Virus record (IMG/VR): IMGVR_UViG_3300020043_001373
Location: 1-32,578 of that record
DNA from: a virus
Lineage: Duplodnaviria; Caudoviricetes
Direction: 5' to 3' (one strand)
Length of the DNA stretch: 32,578 bases
This document shows, in pieces, positions 5,940-29,568 of the stretch. The notes below the pieces were generated by a model. It was not told the origin of the DNA. It ran no database searches and saw only the letters and a list, made by a program, of their open reading frames with translations. The position numbers and the translations under genes were made by a program. Each line of letters starts with the position of its first letter. Position 1 is the stretch's first letter.

Positions 5940-7030
5940 GTCCAATTCCACCACCACCGACCATTGTTGTTCCTAAAAAGGATAGTAAAGGTCCAAAGAT
6001 TACCTACATCTGGATGCCAGATAAAAACGGTAACTTAGTTAAGGCTGACGCATCTGTAGTAAAGAAGTCATTTGCTAAACTGCCAGGTAGTGCACAGGTT
6101 GCTCTTACTCAGTATCTACTTACTATTGCTAACAAGCAACCAACCGACGTTGCTCGTCAGGCTCTATGGAATGACATCGTAGATGGTGCTATTGCAGCAT
6201 TCAAAGAAGGCAAGAAACAAAGTCCTTGGGATGTTTTAAATGTTCTAACAAAGAACTCTCCAGCAATGACTGGCGAAACAGTAACCTACACAGAATACGA
6301 CGCTATTACAGCAGAAGCATTGCTAAATCAAATTGCTGAGACTATTGGCTTTGACGTCACTCAACTTTCTGCTGCAGATAAAACAGAATTCTTTAATAAG
6401 TTAAATACGGAGGCTAAGGCTTCTGGTAAATCAACTACTCGTAGGGCTGCAAGCGGTGGTATGGAGACAGTTATTACTCCATCATTGTTTAATGCTAAGG
6501 ATTTTACGGAGTCTTTCTTATGGGCAAAGGTAAATCTTGGTGACACAACTAAGTTACCATCTAGCGCAATTGCTAAGATTTCTTCAATCAATGCTTTGCT
6601 TAAGGCAAATGGAATATCTGATTATAGCAAAAAAGAAATTGATGCTTTTGGTATTGCACTTGCTTCAGGTGCTAAGACTGTCGATGAATTTAAGAGTCAA
6701 TTTGCAGCCAAGGCTGCAGCACGTTACCCACTGTTTGCAAAGAGATTACAAGATACTCCTGGCTTAACTGTTATGGATGTTGTAGAACCTTACATTACTC
6801 AGATGGCTAAGTACTGGGAGATTGACCCAAGCACTGTTGATTTAGACAATCCAGACCTTGACAAGTTTATTCGCCCTGATGGAACTGCAGGAAATGTACC
6901 AATGGGTTCAATATCAGACTGGGTTGATTATTTAAAGAATCACCCTAACTCAGAAAAAGCAAGTTGGTCCAAGGAATTAGCACGCGACTCCGCAGTAGGA
7001 GTTGCAAGAGCGATGGGATTTGGAGTATAA
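5936..7030 (+). CDS. putative internal virion protein (364 aa)
   Basis: SD AAGGAG, ATGA overlap, position within the ejection-protein block. Confidence 0.6.
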   Translation: MSPIPPPPTIVVPKKDSKGPKITYIWMPDKNGNLVKADASVVKKSFAKLPGSAQVALTQYLLTIANKQPTDVARQALWNDIVDGAIAAFKEGKKQSPWDVLNVLTKNSPAMTGETVTYTEYDAITAEALLNQIAETIGFDVTQLSAADKTEFFNKLNTEAKASGKSTTRRAASGGMETVITPSLFNAKDFTESFLWAKVNLGDTTKLPSSAIAKISSINALLKANGISDYSKKEIDAFGIALASGAKTVDEFKSQFAAKAAARYPLFAKRLQDTPGLTVMDVVEPYITQMAKYWEIDPSTVDLDNPDLDKFIRPDGTAGNVPMGSISDWVDYLKNHPNSEKASWSKELARDSAVGVARAMGFGV

Positions 7031-8664
7031 TGGCACGCAACCCAGGAGTTATGCAGGTAGATGATGACGGCAGCGGACTAGATGAACAAGCATTAATTGA
7101 TGCTATCACAAAACAACAGGTTGCTGCTGGCGTAAAGAGTACTGACCCTAAGGCTAGAATTGGAGACGAAACTGCTTCAGAAGCAAATGCTCGTATTACT
7201 AAAGGTTACAAAGACCAACCTAAGCCAGAATTAACTCAAGAAGGTGAAGCCGCAGGAGCAACAATTAAATTTGTTCGAACCGAAGCGGGTGGAGTTGGTA
7301 AATATAAAGAAATATTTCCTATTGGTACGCCTATTCCTGAAACACGCACAACAGAATATGGTAATATTTACGATGCAAAAGGCAATCTTATTCAAGGCAC
7401 TGGACTAAAAACTGGTGTACCTGGAACATCAAAAGCGCAAAGAACTCCAGAACAAATTGCTGCCTATAACAGCGCAAAAGAATTAGCACAATCATTTGTT
7501 GCTTCATATGGTGGAAAATTAAGTGATTACTTTGATTCCCTAACAGGTAAAGTAACATCTCCTACTAAAGAGATTATTGCCAAAGCACTTGCAAGCCAGA
7601 ACAATGGCGGAGTAACAGAAGTTTCAAGAGTTGCAAATCCAGATGGAAGTGTAACCGTAACTTATTCTGATGGAACTAAAAAAACTTTTGCTAGTACTGC
7701 TGCGGCTAATACAGCAAAGCCAGTGGTTACTGCAACAAGTACAACTGATACTGGTCCTACTTTAGCAGCAGATGTATTTAAGCAAACACTTGCGGTTTTC
7801 TTTGGCGCAGCAGAGATGGGTAAGCCTTGGGCTAACGAACTCTACAAGGTTGTGTCTAAATTTTATAAGGCTGGAGCGACGTCAGAAGAGGCATTTAATA
7901 TGGCTCTTTTAGAGTCTCGCAACAACCCAGCAATGGCTGATTTTACTAAGCGATTCAAGGGAATCTTTGCCCTTCAGGATATGAAGCAAGCAGGCAAGGC
8001 AGTTACTGTGCCAACTATTGCTGAATACTTTGCAACAGAATCAAAGATGGGCGATATGCTCAAGTCATCTAATTTAGGGGACTTGGCTAATGAAGATTTT
8101 CTTGGAGATGTACTTAGCAAAGGTGTATCTGCTACAGAGTTTGGTAACAGAATCACACAAATCTTTGACCGCATCGATAACGCACCAAGTGATATCAAGA
8201 AAACTATTTCAAGATTTTTTCCAACTCTTGACCGTATCCAACTTGCTAAGGCTTTGGCTTTAGGAGATAAGGGTGCTAAGCAACTAGAACAGGAAATTTC
8301 AGGATATGAAGTTCTTTCTGCTGCAGAACTCCAAGGTCTTGGATTGTCTAGAGAATTGCCTGGTGGAATTACCGTTGAACAAGCATCCAATATTGCTAAA
8401 GGTGGTGGCACATATGCCAGCACATTAGGGCAGTTTGGTCAGATTGCTCGTGCTCGTGAGACAGAACAGAAACTTGCAGAAATTTCTGGAGTTAAATCAC
8501 TTGGAGTTTCTGGTTTAACAAATGCAGTAATTGGCAAGTCTGCTGCAGAACTTAAGAAACTAGAAGATTTAACAATACAGGAAGAAGCACGTTTTATGGG
8601 CAAGGCTGGAACCGCAGGTTCTAGAGCGCTTGCATCACAATCTCGTGCTAATCGCATAATCTAA
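7030..8664 (+). CDS. putative internal virion protein (544 aa)
   Basis: Start reassigned to ATG 7030 (TAATG overlap, SD GGAG); Ala/Gly/Thr-rich. Confidence 0.6.
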   Translation: MARNPGVMQVDDDGSGLDEQALIDAITKQQVAAGVKSTDPKARIGDETASEANARITKGYKDQPKPELTQEGEAAGATIKFVRTEAGGVGKYKEIFPIGTPIPETRTTEYGNIYDAKGNLIQGTGLKTGVPGTSKAQRTPEQIAAYNSAKELAQSFVASYGGKLSDYFDSLTGKVTSPTKEIIAKALASQNNGGVTEVSRVANPDGSVTVTYSDGTKKTFASTAAANTAKPVVTATSTTDTGPTLAADVFKQTLAVFFGAAEMGKPWANELYKVVSKFYKAGATSEEAFNMALLESRNNPAMADFTKRFKGIFALQDMKQAGKAVTVPTIAEYFATESKMGDMLKSSNLGDLANEDFLGDVLSKGVSATEFGNRITQIFDRIDNAPSDIKKTISRFFPTLDRIQLAKALALGDKGAKQLEQEISGYEVLSAAELQGLGLSRELPGGITVEQASNIAKGGGTYASTLGQFGQIARARETEQKLAEISGVKSLGVSGLTNAVIGKSAAELKKLEDLTIQEEARFMGKAGTAGSRALASQSRANRII

Positions 8665-8673
8665 AACAGAATC

Positions 8674-8804
8674 CTGAGCGGACCGACCAGCCCCGCCAGC
8701 GTAACAGACTGGGAGTAAGAGCCAGACCATTTCCCCGAATGGAACCTGAGGCTTGCGAACTAACTACGAATAGAAGGGTGGCGTTGCTATGAGCAACAAC
8801 TACT
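8674..8804 (+). ncRNA. candidate structured cis-regulatory leader (pseudoknot, hairpin and start-codon hairpin) of the scaffold/capsid genes
   Basis: CUG(A)GCGG 8674-8681 pairs with CCGCCAG 8693-8699. Loop CCAG 8687-8690 pairs with CUGG 8709-8712. Hairpin 8715-8756. GUUGCU/AGCAAC encloses the AUG at 8789. Confidence 0.55.
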
Positions 8805-9268
8805 GGGACGACGAAGACGATGACCTAGATACAATCGATGAAGCACCGATGGATGGAAGTGACTTACTTAAAAAGTTACGAAAAGCCAAGCGTGCAGATG
8901 AGAAGCGTATTAAGGAACTCACAGAGCAACTTGAGGGATTCTCCAAGACGCAGCGTGAAGCAACTGTCAAGTCAGTACTAGAAAAGAAGGGCGTCAATCT
9001 TAAAGCAGCCCGTTTAGTAATGAAGGACTTGGATGACATTAGCGAAGAATCAGTTTCTAACTGGCTCGATGATAATGCAGACTTGTTCGGACTAACGGTT
9101 AACGAAGATAGTTCTAAGGTAACACAAGAAGACCGCGCTGCATTACGCAACCAGGACTTGGTTACACAGAACGCTATGACCCCTGACCGAGCAAACGATA
9201 TTGAATACAGAATGCAACAGGCTACGTCTGAAGAAGACATTCTGTCAATTCTACGCTCACAACAATAA
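8789..9268 (+). CDS. capsid scaffolding protein (159 aa)
   Basis: Acidic N-terminus, coiled-coil (LLKKLRKAKRADEKRIKELTEQLE), directly upstream of the capsid gene. Confidence 0.8.
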   Translation: MSNNYWDDEDDDLDTIDEAPMDGSDLLKKLRKAKRADEKRIKELTEQLEGFSKTQREATVKSVLEKKGVNLKAARLVMKDLDDISEESVSNWLDDNADLFGLTVNEDSSKVTQEDRAALRNQDLVTQNAMTPDRANDIEYRMQQATSEEDILSILRSQQ

Positions 9269-9301
9269 TATCCGTTCATAGTCACTTGGAGGTGACCGCA
9301 T

Positions 9302-10501
9302 ATGCCTAACGCATATACATCCACAGGCTCTACCACTCTTGGTGGTACAGTCGGCGGTGCAGGTCTTGTACAGAAGGCGTATGACCGTCTTCTTGAGTTC
9401 GCTCTCCGCGCCGAACCACTAATTCGTTCAGTCGCAGACAAGACTCCAGCACAGCAATCAATCCCAGGTTCAACAGTAGTTCTACAGAAGTACGTTGACC
9501 TCAATGCAGTAACAGATACTCTAACAGAGACAGTAGACCCAGATTCAGTCGCGTTGTCAACACCTAACACAGTTACAATTACTCTTAACGAGTACGGTAA
9601 CTCTGTTCTTGTAACACGCGCTTTGGAACTATTCTCACTTGCAGACGTTGACCCAGCAATTGCTAACGTAATTGCGTTCAACCTTGCAGACTCAATCGAC
9701 CAGGTTGCGATGACAACACTTAACGGTGGAACAAACGTAATCTACGGCGGTTCAACAGCAACCTCAACAGCAACAATCACTGCTGCTGCAACACTAGACT
9801 CAGCAGACATCCGTAAGGCTGTTGCTAAGTTGCGTTCAAACAAGGCTGCATACCGTAAGGGTTCACTATTCTGGACTGGTATCCACCCAGAAGTTTCACA
9901 CGACCTTCGTGCAGAGACAGGCGCAGCAGGATGGCGCGACCCACACAATTACTCTTCACCAGACAACATCTGGGCTGGAGAAATTGGACAGTACGAAGGC
10001 GCATTCTTCGTAGAGTCACCACGCTTGTTCAACGCTAAGTCAGGTGCAGACCAGTCAGCATTGGCTACAACAGCAGTAACAGTTGCAGGAACATCAGCAG
10101 GATTCACATTCGGCGTTGCTTCATCTTCTGTAATTGCATCACGCGCTGAAGTTGGCGACAAGATTGCAGGAACAGGAATCGGTGCATCTGCAAAGATTAC
10201 TGCTCTTTCAACAACAGGTTCAACAACAACAATTACTGTAGATGTTGCTAACTCAGCAGCAGTTACAGCAACAACAACAGTTACAGTTACACCAGTAACT
10301 CGCGTATTCTCAACAATCGTTGCTGGAAAGCAAGCAATGGCTCAGGCTGTTGCAGAAGAACCACACGTTGTTATCGGACCAGTCGTTGACAAGTTGATGC
10401 GTTTCCGCCCAATGGGTTGGTACGGCGTACTCGGCTTTGCACGCTACCGTGAAGAAGCACTTTACCGCCTGGAGACAGGCTCATCAATCGCTGCTCTCTA
10501 G
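9302..10501 (+). CDS. major capsid protein (399 aa, HK97-type inferred) with a Thr/Ala-rich insertion
   Basis: Strong SD GGAGGTG, highly biased codons, capsid-like motifs (ITLNEYGN, LADSIDQ, IHPEVSHDL, GEIGQYEGAFFVES, GWYGVLGF). Confidence 0.9.
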   Translation: MPNAYTSTGSTTLGGTVGGAGLVQKAYDRLLEFALRAEPLIRSVADKTPAQQSIPGSTVVLQKYVDLNAVTDTLTETVDPDSVALSTPNTVTITLNEYGNSVLVTRALELFSLADVDPAIANVIAFNLADSIDQVAMTTLNGGTNVIYGGSTATSTATITAAATLDSADIRKAVAKLRSNKAAYRKGSLFWTGIHPEVSHDLRAETGAAGWRDPHNYSSPDNIWAGEIGQYEGAFFVESPRLFNAKSGADQSALATTAVTVAGTSAGFTFGVASSSVIASRAEVGDKIAGTGIGASAKITALSTTGSTTTITVDVANSAAVTATTTVTVTPVTRVFSTIVAGKQAMAQAVAEEPHVVIGPVVDKLMRFRPMGWYGVLGFARYREEALYRLETGSSIAAL

Positions 10502-10506
10502 TAGTT

Positions 10507-10550
10507 AATTGACGGGTGAGCAGAGGGAAACCTCTGCTCATCAGTAAGTT
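10507..10550 (+). terminator. long hairpin after the capsid gene (terminator/attenuator or processing site; no U-tract)
   Basis: TGAGCAGAGG-GAAA-CCTCTGCTCA (10517-10540), extendable with G-U pairs and two mismatches to 10507/10550. Confidence 0.65.
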
Positions 10551-11316: not shown

Positions 11317-11649
11317 ATGCCAATGACATATGACGAATACCAGAACAAGCGTTCTTGGTTAGTAGATACCGCTGAGACTCCTGCAGACCAGAAGCGCCTT
11401 AAGGCACAACTTGAAAAATTAAAGGCTCAGTACGATGCTGGCAAGGCTAAGGCTTCACCTACTGCTAAGCCACTTACGGGTGCTGCTGCTATTAAGGCAA
11501 TTCAGCAACGCACATCTGACGCAGGTGTAGCAAAAGCAGAAGCCCAAGCACGTGCTGCTATTGCCAAGAAGCACCCAGGACTTACCATTCCTGAGGTGAA
11601 GAAATCCCCAGACCTATCACGTTCAAGAAACAAGAATTTCGGAAGATGA
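11317..11649 (+). CDS. basic Ala/Lys-rich hypothetical protein (110 aa)
   Basis: ORF track; coupled to neighbours. Confidence 0.7.
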   Translation: MPMTYDEYQNKRSWLVDTAETPADQKRLKAQLEKLKAQYDAGKAKASPTAKPLTGAAAIKAIQQRTSDAGVAKAEAQARAAIAKKHPGLTIPEVKKSPDLSRSRNKNFGR

Positions 11650-11831
11650 AGAACAAAGTACAAAAGGTTATGGGCGAATTTAAACGCGGGACATTACACG
11701 CAGGGGCTAATCCTAAAGGACCAAAGAAGGCGCCTATTGTTAAATCTCGTAAGCAGGCTATTGCAATTGCTTTGTCTGAAGCAGGTAAGTCTAAGAGCAC
11801 AAAAAAAACATCTAAGAAGGGTAAAAAATAA
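11646..11831 (+). CDS. small basic protein, DUF6496-like (61 aa)
   Basis: KVQKVMGEFKRGTLH...VKSRKQAIAIALSEA motif, recognised from memory of the family. Confidence 0.7.
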   Translation: MKNKVQKVMGEFKRGTLHAGANPKGPKKAPIVKSRKQAIAIALSEAGKSKSTKKTSKKGKK

Positions 11832-12142
11832 TGCAACCACCGTCAGGAAGAAATACAGGCACAGGATGGTCAAACAAGAAAAAGGCTCCAGGAGGAGGAA
11901 AACTAGTAGTTGACCCACGTCCAGGAAACAAGGCTCCACGAATTAAACCAGTAGTTGACCCACGCCCAGGCAACAAAACCCCAGGAGGAAACAAGCCAGT
12001 AGTTGACCCACGCCCAGGCGCAGGTCGCAAAGTGGCTAACCCAGGTCTTGATATGAAAATTCAACCATTGAAGCCACGTTCAAGTGGCGGACTCTTTGGT
12101 GTTGGCGGAAAAATGGTCAACAAAGTTTACAAGACATACTAA
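11831..12142 (+). CDS. Pro/Gly/Lys-rich protein with three VVDPRPG repeats (103 aa)
   Basis: TAATG coupling; internal repeats. Confidence 0.7.
   Translation: MQPPSGRNTGTGWSNKKKAPGGGKLVVDPRPGNKAPRIKPVVDPRPGNKTPGGNKPVVDPRPGAGRKVANPGLDMKIQPLKPRSSGGLFGVGGKMVNKVYKTY
11905..12018 (+). repeat. three 21-nt direct repeats AGTAGTTGACCCACGYCCAGG
   Basis: Copies at 11905, 11950 and 11998; periods of 45 and 48 nt keep the frame. Confidence 0.9.
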
Positions 12143-12168
12143 AATACTAAACAAGGCGGCGAACAAAG

Positions 12169-12426
12169 ATGGCAGACCCTAGACTAAAGCGAGCAGGAGT
12201 GTCAGGCTTCAACAAGCCTAAGCGCACACCAAGTCATCCAAAGAAGTCACACGTTGTTGTGGCTAAAGAAGGCGATAAGGTCAAAACTATTCGCTTTGGT
12301 CAACAGGGTGTTACTGGCGATAAGAAGCCAACAGCACGTCAAGCATCATTTAAGGCTAGGCACGCAAAGAATATTGCCAAAGGCAAAATGAGTGCCGCAT
12401 ATTGGGCAGATAAGGTGAAATGGTGA
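12169..12426 (+). CDS. small basic phage protein (85 aa), possible nucleic-acid binder
   Basis: KPKRTPSHPKKSHVVVAK...IRFGQQG...SFKARH...SAAYWA; very K/R-rich. Confidence 0.75.
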   Translation: MADPRLKRAGVSGFNKPKRTPSHPKKSHVVVAKEGDKVKTIRFGQQGVTGDKKPTARQASFKARHAKNIAKGKMSAAYWADKVKW

Positions 12427-28502: not shown

Positions 28503-28885
28503 AAGAACAGGAGTTGTTCGACTGGCTCAAAGAAGAACATTTCCCAGACTTAGTACACTCCCCAGAACTCTTTGATGGTTTCGATTGCATCACAGATATG
28601 TATAAGATGTTCATTGAACTTAAATCACGCAACACGCATTACGATACGTTGTTGCTTGAGAAAAAGAAATATGACTTCCTTATCACTAAGTCTGCTGAAC
28701 TTGAGTTAACACCTTATTACATTAACTATACACCTGAGGGTGTGTGGTCTTTTCGTCTTGACCTGATGAATGATTTAGTCTGGGAAGATAAGTGGTTGCC
28801 AGTTACAACTGAGTTTGCTAACAAGAATAAGATGATGAAGCCTGTCACATTCCTTAAGATAGTGGATGGGACAAAGATTAAATGA
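28499..28885 (+). CDS. PD-(D/E)XK-like nuclease-fold protein (128 aa)
   Basis: Start ATG 28499 (ATGA overlap); FDC...IELKSR...LLEKKKY. Confidence 0.6.
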   Translation: MKEQELFDWLKEEHFPDLVHSPELFDGFDCITDMYKMFIELKSRNTHYDTLLLEKKKYDFLITKSAELELTPYYINYTPEGVWSFRLDLMNDLVWEDKWLPVTTEFANKNKMMKPVTFLKIVDGTKIK

Positions 28886-29568
28886 TTGAATGGGAAAGAA
28901 TAAAGCGGTGGGATTATGTAGTAGATGCTGTCGCCTCTGAATACTCTCGTAAGTTTTCAATCATTGACATCGAAGACATCAGACAATCTTTGTATCAGTG
29001 GTTTGTAGAGCACCCAAATAAACTGGATGCTTGGGAAGAGATAGGTGACAAGGATGCAAAGAACCTTATCTATCGTAGCCTACGCAATCAAGCCTTAGAT
29101 TATTGCAACCATTGGAAAGCAAAGTCTGGTGGCTATGAGACTAGCGATTTATTCTTTTATGAAGCAGATATGGTTGAGGCTTTGTTGCCTCCTGTATTGC
29201 GTGGAGAGTGGGGCGTAACCCACAAATTAAATCTTGGTAGAACTGGTCGTCCATCTGCACCTAACGAGGGTGGCAATATGATGGCTATGATGATTGAAGT
29301 TGACTATGCATTCTGGAAACTGCCAAAGGATGACAGGAAAGTATTATTCCTGCGCTATGCAGAGTCAATGGAGTTCGGTGACATTGCAAAAGAATTAGAT
29401 ATGGGCACAGAAGATGCAGTTCGTATGCGTCACAAGCGTGCCATTCGTAAACTCATTAACAAGATTGGTGGGTTCAAACCATTCCGCGATTACGACGACG
29501 CACCTCAGGAAGACTCAGGCGTTGACTCTGCTGGGTCTACCCAGAGTGACTCACCATATGAGTCGTAA
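28882..29568 (+). CDS. phage sigma-70 family RNA polymerase sigma factor (228 aa)
   Basis: Region 2-like (IEDIRQ...LRNQALDY) and region 4 HTH (LPKDDRKVLFLRY..MEFGDIAKELD..EDAVRMRHKRAIRKL). Confidence 0.85.
   Translation: MIEWERIKRWDYVVDAVASEYSRKFSIIDIEDIRQSLYQWFVEHPNKLDAWEEIGDKDAKNLIYRSLRNQALDYCNHWKAKSGGYETSDLFFYEADMVEALLPPVLRGEWGVTHKLNLGRTGRPSAPNEGGNMMAMMIEVDYAFWKLPKDDRKVLFLRYAESMEFGDIAKELDMGTEDAVRMRHKRAIRKLINKIGGFKPFRDYDDAPQEDSGVDSAGSTQSDSPYES

What the first reader, a model, noticed from the sequence alone, without database searches (positions are those of the whole stretch)
8665..8804. Pseudoknotted leader RNA that buries the scaffold start codon
Seen: the 124-nt gap before the scaffold gene folds into three modules. 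(1) An H-type pseudoknot: 8674-8681/8693-8699, with loop CCAG pairing to CUGG 8709-8712. (2) A bulged hairpin: GUAA..GCC/GGC.UUGC closing CCAUU/AAUGG around UCCCCG. (3) A hairpin with the AUG itself as the 3-nt loop (GUUGCU/AGCAAC), extended by SD-region GGUGG 8777-8781 pairing with CUACU 8800-8804. AACUAC occurs both at 8762-8767 and 8798-8803, offering two alternative partners for the SD. Known precedent: P22 scaffolding protein autoregulates its synthesis post-transcriptionally. Inference: an RNA switch that sets scaffold:capsid stoichiometry. I do not recognise it as a described family.
Basis: partly seen in the sequence, partly recalled or inferred. Interest (0 to 1): 0.78.

Follow-up and report, generated by a model that had tools for sequence, protein, structure and literature searches.

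The report
Double-pseudoknot leader of actinophage scaffold genes
A roughly 125-base element matching no Rfam family is conserved, with compensating base changes, just before the likely head-scaffold gene of freshwater and soil actinobacterial phages; as RNA it is predicted to cover the ribosome-binding site and start codon and likely meters scaffold synthesis.

Summary
The window is a close relative of Planktophila phage LanE43AprE7. The same leader precedes the homologous putative scaffold gene in freshwater actinophages, cultured Streptomyces cluster BF phages and Streptomyces genome contigs (343 distinct leaders; scaffolds down to about 25% identity). The 5' pseudoknot and the bulged hairpin covary strongly against tree-aware nulls. 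The start-codon hairpin co-evolves with the protein's first codons in most clades. New here: the hairpin's CCC loop likely docks on the Shine-Dalgarno sequence as a second pseudoknot (one covarying position, p=0.0003; only 3 pairs in this genome), and an AGC/HGG internal loop is kept in 292 of 320 leaders. The pseudoknot starts at a tRNA 3' end, just after a -10 box, or just after a stop codon, which suggests a 5'-end role. The proposed AACUAC switch is not conserved (48 of 198). No Rfam match. Best reading: a translation-damping leader, likely held shut by free scaffold protein as in P22; the effector is untested. A new RNA family in a known niche, testable in Streptomyces.

The parts
6964..8664 (+). 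Upstream gene of unknown function; its stop codon (8662-8664) lies 8 nt before P1
   Evidence: ORF list; phrog_8424, unknown function
8673..8701 (+). P1 of the 5' H-type pseudoknot: 8674-8681 with 8693-8699, plus C8673-G8701 across a bulged base
   Evidence: Covarying pairs in freshwater and Streptomyces sets; C/U-G closing pair in 198 of 198
8687..8712 (+). Pseudoknot stem S2: CCAG 8687-8690 with CUGG 8709-8712; likely extra pair C8691-G8707 across a variable bulged base 8708
   Evidence: Nine compensated 4-bp variants in 320 parsed leaders; four core pairs kept in 63 of 63 and C-G invariant; 15 of 15 independent pairs
8715..8756 (+). P2/P3 hairpin: 5-bp P2a 8715-8719/8752-8756, internal loop AGC 8720-8722 / AGG 8749-8751, 8723-8725/8746-8748, P3 8727-8731/8738-8742, loop UCCCCG 8732-8737
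   Evidence: Covariation; AGC/HGG internal loop in 292 of 320 leaders; loop C columns 99 of 100
8734..8778 (+). Predicted second pseudoknot: loop C8734-C8736 docking on SD G8776-G8778, with a G8737-A8775 mismatch in this genome
   Evidence: Base after the C run covaries with the base before the SD G run, p=0.0003 against tree simulation; AGGAG-type SD goes with a CCC-UA loop in 32 of 32
8772..8780 (+). Shine-Dalgarno sequence AGAAGGGUG
   Evidence: Sequence; conserved core in alignment; match to the actinobacterial anti-SD is recalled
8783..8797 (+). Start-codon hairpin GUUGCU/AGCAAC around AUG 8789-8791
   Evidence: 36 of 36 freshwater start types fold it; cognate spacer-start pairs beat swapped ones in other clades, -3.87 vs -1.93 kcal/mol
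8789..9268 (+). Putative capsid scaffolding protein, 159 aa
   Evidence: Directly before the capsid gene; no Pfam hit itself; a relative passes the PF14265 scaffold cut-off and 5 more of 13 hit it weakly; low-confidence all-helical model, pLDDT 52
9281..9296 (+). Small hairpin over the capsid gene's SD; possible translational coupling
   Evidence: Fold of 229 distinct spacers, mean -9.6 vs -7.9 kcal/mol shuffled; covariation not tested
9302..10501 (+). Major capsid protein (N4-gp56 type)
   Evidence: phrog_1357 E 2.9e-81; PF13252
10515..10542 (+). 12-bp hairpin after the capsid gene, possible terminator without a U tail
   Evidence: Fold; not called by the terminator scan

Best explanation
The 124-nt gap is a conserved, covarying leader of the putative scaffold gene that is predicted to fold as RNA over the Shine-Dalgarno sequence and start codon, and it likely represses scaffold translation when free scaffold protein binds and holds it shut. 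Shown by comparison: a 5' H-type pseudoknot, a hairpin with a conserved AGC/HGG internal loop and CCC loop, and a start-codon hairpin. Inferred from covariation: the CCC loop docks on the SD (3 to 5 pairs). Inferred by analogy with P22: unassembled scaffold stabilises the docked state, probably at the internal loop, and repression lifts when capsid protein draws scaffold into procapsids. Inferred from position: the 5' pseudoknot caps the head-gene mRNA and likely shields it from 5' decay.
For: Covariation of P1, S2, P2, P3 in two clades aligned separately without structure and across 63 diverse leaders: 87.6% of cells paired vs 65.0% shuffled and 27-40% slid. G-U far exceeds A-C at well-aligned pairs (for example 55 vs 0, 38 vs 0, 28 vs 0), which points to the coding strand as RNA. 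Loop-SD covariation p=0.0003, 0.002 within GGG-type SDs, while 11 other column pairs gave p 0.08-0.97. Start-codon hairpin re-matches changed first codons. Fixed position: 109 of 120 motif-first hits have a scaffold match downstream, 8 more show the same start and 3 are cut off; 100 of 100 diverse loci gave one match, on the coding strand; one copy in the window. Conserved unpaired bases suggest recognition, not just stability. [quoted passage not shown]
Against: No binding, reporter or probing data. The scaffold is net acidic, and its basic patch is strong only in the freshwater clade. In this genome the loop-SD helix is 3 C-G pairs with a G-A mismatch at the covarying position (170 of 340); the neighbouring pair does not covary (p=0.68) and independent-pair sign tests were not significant. 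The start-codon hairpin is absent in most AGGAG-type leaders (4 of 19). Some leaders lack the internal loop (L446, L448, L449, L517) or a canonical 5' pseudoknot (L434, L436, L518). No conserved alternative 'on' structure was found.
Confidence: 0.45

Rival explanations
1. Fixed attenuator plus mRNA stabiliser: the leader simply lowers scaffold initiation to a set level and protects the 5' end, with no regulator.
For: All predicted pairings are repressive. Leaders with a longer loop-SD helix have weaker start-codon hairpins (means -5.2, -5.0, -2.0, -2.3 kcal/mol for 3, 4, 5, 6 pairs; rho 0.40, not tree-corrected), as if total occlusion were tuned. P1 begins at a tRNA end, after a -10 box or after a stop codon.
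Against: A plain hairpin would do this. It does not explain the AGC/HGG loop in 292 of 320 leaders or the invariant junction bases.
Confidence: 0.22
2. The effector is another phage protein, most likely free capsid protein, which opens the leader when coat is in excess.
For: The capsid protein is better conserved (50-60% between clades) than the scaffold (25-46%), matching a conserved RNA surface.
Against: No direct evidence; the cited precedent is scaffold self-regulation.
Confidence: 0.17
3. A riboswitch for a small molecule or ion, with the 5' pseudoknot as aptamer.
For: Compact H-type pseudoknot with conserved junction bases; SD-docking pseudoknots are common riboswitch platforms (recalled).
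Against: No Rfam match. The linker between the two domains varies from 2 to about 15 nt. Confined to one phage structural gene; not found elsewhere in 300 sampled genomes with limited scoring.
Confidence: 0.07
4. The 5' domain is a self-cleaving RNA that frees the head-gene mRNA from upstream tRNAs or genes.
For: In 60 of 320 leaders P1 starts within -5 to +8 nt of a tRNA end, 45 at -1 or -2, behind 11 tRNA types plus 2 undetermined, the position reported for theta ribozymes (PMC10879173, passages).
Against: The P1 loop is about 11 nt and holds no nested P2/P3, so the HDV-like fold is absent. In 12 of 16 prophage-type leaders a -10 box would start the RNA at P1, leaving nothing to cut.
Confidence: 0.05
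5. A DNA-level site (promoter, operator or packaging signal), not RNA.
For: Freshwater leaders often carry TAGAAT right before P1.
Against: Pseudoknot pairs covary and G-U is tolerated where A-C is not. A start 7 nt after TAGAAT would fall inside P1, whose closing pairs are kept in 198 and 195 of 198.
Confidence: 0.02

Closest known systems
P22 scaffolding protein (gp8) translational autoregulation
   Same: Control at the scaffold gene's translation start, in front of the coat gene (passage in bioRxiv 10.1101/2022.12.13.520362; Wyckoff and Casjens 1985 seen only as a reference entry in PMC2115188).
   Different: Different host phylum; no sequence comparison with the P22 leader was made; here a covarying tandem-pseudoknot structure is defined, and the effector is untested.
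GP20-a (RF02991), GP20-b (RF03003) and six further GP20-upstream candidates of Fremin et al. 2023 (PMC10690425)
   Same: Structured RNAs directly upstream of a phage head gene (passages); GP20 as a scaffold-type protein is recalled, the paper calls it unknown.
   Different: No match to either Rfam model even at E<=10; different protein family. The candidates' sequences could not be read, so presence among that paper's 8,495 DNA-virus candidates is not excluded.
T4 gene 32 autoregulatory pseudoknot
   Same: Phage 5' leader pseudoknot tied to self-repression of translation (passage in PMC10690425).
   Different: gp32 is a nucleic-acid-binding replication protein; here a head assembly gene, with a second SD-docking domain and a start-codon hairpin.
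Theta (minimal HDV-like) ribozymes (PMC10879173)
   Same: Begin directly at the 3' end of phage tRNAs (passages).
   Different: No nested double-pseudoknot topology here; always cis to the scaffold gene; also found behind stop codons and -10 boxes.
Exoribonuclease-resistant RNAs (xrRNAs; PMC5760640)
   Same: Pseudoknot at the 5' boundary of an abundant viral RNA; a flaviviral xrRNA blocks bacterial RNase J1 (passages); RNase J homologues occur in two actinobacterial genomes carrying the locus, one over the cut-off.
   Different: No three-way junction; ring threading and nuclease blocking untested; the examples in the papers listed are from eukaryotic viruses.

Membership tests
Any Rfam 15 family (including GP20-a, GP20-b, riboswitches, ribozymes) | Covariance-model score at or near the gathering threshold | tested here: not met
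   0 hits in the window; only chance hits at E<=10 for the window, FlowerPower and L429 leaders; only tRNAs in 20 further loci
P22-type scaffold autoregulation | Element lies at the scaffold translation start and occludes it | tested here: met
   (occlusion inferred from covariation; scaffold identity from relatives)
P22-type scaffold autoregulation | Free scaffold protein represses its own synthesis after transcription | not testable with these tools
   Needs a reporter or binding assay
GP20-upstream motifs | Downstream gene belongs to the GP20 Pfam family | tested here: not met
   No such hit for the window protein or 13 relatives, which hit PF14265 instead
Theta / HDV-like ribozymes | 5' end adjacent to a tRNA 3' end | tested here: met
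   60 of 320 leaders, none in the window itself
Theta / HDV-like ribozymes | Nested double pseudoknot with P2 strand and P3 hairpin inside P1, catalytic C in J4/2 | tested here: not met
   P1 loop is about 11 nt with one pseudoknot strand only; topology of the family recalled and from figure legends
Theta / HDV-like ribozymes | Mg2+-dependent self-cleavage | not testable with these tools
   Bench assay
xrRNA | Blocks a 5'-3' exoribonuclease without protein | not testable with these tools
   Only position and host RNase J presence were examined
Translational riboswitch with SD-docking pseudoknot | Loop pairs with the SD | tested here: met
   One covarying position p=0.0003 and a C-G to U-A swap in 32 leaders, 3 changes on the tree; moderate support
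Translational riboswitch with SD-docking pseudoknot | Selective small-ligand binding | not testable with these tools
   Needs in-line probing

The most novel reading that the evidence does not exclude
A two-function phage RNA device: a protein-free pseudoknot that blocks RNase J and so carves out and stabilises the head-gene mRNA from a tRNA array or longer transcript (an xrRNA-like element in a bacteriophage), fused to a scaffold-sensing SD-docking switch that meters head assembly.
Probability: 0.15. Interest if true: 0.88.

Novelty: new variant of a known kind. Interest (0 to 1): 0.64.

Why it matters
Scaffold must be made in proportion to coat protein, and P22 showed decades ago that scaffold can limit its own synthesis, but I found no described RNA structure for that in the searches run. 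This family gives a covariation-defined structure with specific pairs to mutate, in phages of the most abundant freshwater actinobacteria and in Streptomyces phages that grow on laboratory hosts. If the 5' pseudoknot also blocks RNase J, it would extend exoribonuclease-resistant RNAs to bacteriophages.

Tried and rejected
Thermodynamic z-score: uninformative. Sigma-70 promoter scan: nothing near the leader; TANNNT positions in freshwater leaders are scattered or abut P1. AACUAC switch rejected. GGUGG/CUACU extension: compatible in 154 of 198, no covariation, both arms otherwise constrained. Independent-pair sign tests for loop-SD docking: direction as predicted (about 4 vs 0.1-0.3) but not significant. 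The 340 of 340 C-G count is circular (anchors) and not used. HDV-like fold rejected on topology. RNA runs: contigs from 4 metatranscriptomes lie on 8673-10515 and almost none on 7800-8672; they are contigs, may hold DNA and the upstream gene is variable, so this does not place a transcript start, and no DNA control was obtained. Model search of sampled genomes: 1 of 151 twice, only the seed genome, 22 candidates scored per genome; not proof of absence. No match before the head genes of Bacillus phage Pascal or one distant gut phage. Single-sequence structure model too weak for a fold search. Earlier scan notes: nothing. Rows dropped: L444, L449, L565 before (wrong or short ORF call; the first two were recovered); L433, L439, L522 before the tree tests (wrong loop anchor); rows with scaffolds under 120 aa. 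Literature searches without a description of this motif. Supplements holding sequences were unreadable for PMC10690425 and PMC5737381.

Full report
Setting. The window is a 32.6-kb virus record. The 159-aa ORF at 8789-9268 lies directly before the major capsid gene (phrog_1357) and is 94-95% identical to proteins of two records, one titled LanE43-AprE7. That is a phage isolated on 'Ca. Planktophila' (PMC10202952, first part of the main text read), so a Nanopelagicales host is inferred. The ORF has no Pfam hit itself. One relative passes the cut-off of the scaffold family PF14265 and 5 more of 13 proteins hit it weakly. 'Scaffold' is therefore likely, not proven.

Observation. Energy alone is unremarkable (z -0.56). 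Homologues settle the question. From scaffold, capsid and motif searches I assembled 343 distinct leaders. In 198 freshwater leaders aligned without structure, 13 column pairs passed a tree-based null at E<=0.025; 9 are pairs of P1, S2, P2 and P3 and 4 are cross-terms within S2, whose two variable pairs switch together (my own R-scape-like script). On a tree from the scaffold proteins (164 rows), one S2 pair changed together in 15 of 15 independent contrasts and the other in 14 of 15 with none opposite. In 24 Streptomyces-type leaders, aligned separately, the 4 significant pairs are again in P1, S2 and P2. Over 63 hand-picked diverse leaders 87.6% of cells pair, against 65.0% shuffled and 27-40% slid; the structure was derived from these sequences, which favours it. 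G-U is tolerated and A-C is not at well-aligned pairs; two bulge-shifted columns supply 75 of the 114 A-C counts.

Range. Cultured Streptomyces cluster BF phages carry the same architecture in the 115-nt gap between tRNA-Val and a homologous gene (hhalign probability 73%). Capsid-profile searches added soil phages and Streptomyces genome contigs. A covariance model gave one match, on the coding strand, in 100 of 100 diverse loci, many of them in its training set, one in the window and one in isolate E7. A parser found the 5' pseudoknot in 320 of 332 leaders against 46 of 996 shuffles. Motif-first hits precede the scaffold in 109 of 120 by tblastn; 8 more show the same start and 3 are cut off (output partly cut). 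Where an HNH-like gene sits between scaffold and capsid, the leader stays with the scaffold (L420, L444, L449). No match was seen in Bacillus phage Pascal or in two samples of 150 genomes beyond the seed (limited scoring).

The hairpin loop has near-invariant cytosines (99 of 100). The base after the C run and the base before the SD G run covary: G-A 170, U-A 64, A-U 59, G-U 22, A-A 10, G-C 9, U-U 4, A-C 2 of 340. Against simulation on the protein tree (304 rows) the excess of Watson-Crick pairs has p=0.0003, and 0.002 within GGG-type SDs; 11 other column pairs, including the next pair in register, gave p 0.08-0.97. All 32 leaders with an AGGAG-type SD have a CCC-UA loop, 3 changes on the tree. 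Sign tests on independent pairs were not significant, and here the helix is only 3 C-G pairs, so support is moderate. An AGC/HGG internal loop is kept in 292 of 320.

Start-codon hairpin. Of 121 distinct spacer-start types, 36 of 36 freshwater ones fold it. In 66 other types cognate combinations average -3.87 kcal/mol against -1.93 (sd 0.17) for swapped partners (p=0.003, not tree-corrected): the spacer re-matches changed first codons. It is mostly absent in the AGGAG group (4 of 19), which has the longest loop-SD helix. The AACUAC alternative partner is in 48 of 198 and is rejected; the GGUGG/CUACU extension is compatible in 154 of 198 without covariation.

5' position. P1 starts within -5 to +8 nt of an ARAGORN tRNA end in 60 of 320 leaders (45 at -1 or -2; 11 named tRNA types), and 0-12 nt after a stop codon in 226 of the other 260. 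In 16 prophage-type leaders picked by eye, 12 have a TANNNT box 25-28 nt before the S2 anchor, which would start the RNA 1-2 nt before their short P1. This suggests the pseudoknot sits at an RNA 5' end; no start was mapped. Two RNA-library contigs span leader and scaffold start (8699-8812 and 8702-8852), but may derive from DNA.

Mechanism. Shown: conserved helices fixed to the scaffold start. Inferred: SD and AUG occlusion lowers initiation. Most likely regulator: free scaffold, by analogy with P22 (bioRxiv 10.1101/2022.12.13.520362, passage), with invariant Arg31 as candidate contact (60 of 60); against it, the protein is acidic and its basic patch is clade-limited. I give this 0.45, a fixed attenuator and stabiliser 0.22, capsid protein as effector 0.17, a riboswitch 0.07, self-cleavage 0.05. 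The capsid SD also lies in a small hairpin near the scaffold stop, so the leader may meter both genes rather than their ratio.

Known systems. No Rfam family matches. The nearest described kinds are GP20-upstream motifs and the T4 gene 32 pseudoknot (PMC10690425, passages), P22 autoregulation, theta ribozymes (same position, different topology; PMC10879173, passages) and xrRNAs (PMC5760640, passages; RNase J homologues in two genomes that carry the locus). Searches found no description (listings seen). Sequence supplements of PMC10690425 and PMC5737381 could not be read, so a prior unnamed listing is possible.

Verdict. A real, widespread and apparently undescribed phage leader family: a new variant of a known kind, with function untested but directly testable. 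Interest 0.64.

Noticed in passing
window 9281-9296: The capsid gene's SD sits in a 6-bp hairpin 13 nt after the scaffold stop; similar SD hairpins with different sequences occur in many relatives, hinting at translational coupling.
   Followed up: partly
window 10515-10542: Perfect 12-bp hairpin after the capsid gene with no U tail; RNA-library contigs end near here.
   Followed up: no
L420 1064-1500, L444 1059-1500, L449 998-1500: HNH-like endonuclease ORFs (family assigned by eye) inserted between scaffold and capsid genes.
   Followed up: partly
L446 855-961, L448 844-952, L449 389-494, L517 853-958: Minimal leaders that keep the 5' pseudoknot and the CCCC loop but lose the internal loop; useful natural deletion controls.
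   Followed up: partly
L434 782-928, L436 787-929, L518 818-928: Leaders that keep the second domain but have a different 5' region without the canonical pseudoknot.
   Followed up: partly
L402 796-985: About 55 nt of self-complementary sequence inserted in the 3' arm of the hairpin, with the flanking motif intact.
   Followed up: no
L362 2317-2330 and related soil loci: The last tRNA of the array ends in NCC followed by G rather than CCA, and that C is the first base of P1, so tRNA end and pseudoknot overlap.
   Followed up: partly
window 10030-10290 (capsid gene): The freshwater capsid protein carries an insertion of about 80 aa, rich in Thr, Ala and Val, that Streptomyces relatives lack.
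   Followed up: no
L366 2025-2893: The capsid gene of Streptomyces phage JXY1 is annotated as two CDS pieces, possibly a sequencing error.
   Followed up: no
window 11317-12426: Cluster of short, very basic ORFs after the capsid module, one with a threefold repeated VVDPRPG-like unit.
   Followed up: no
window 28882-29568: Phage sigma-70 region 4 protein; a possible source of a phage-specific head-gene promoter.
   Followed up: no
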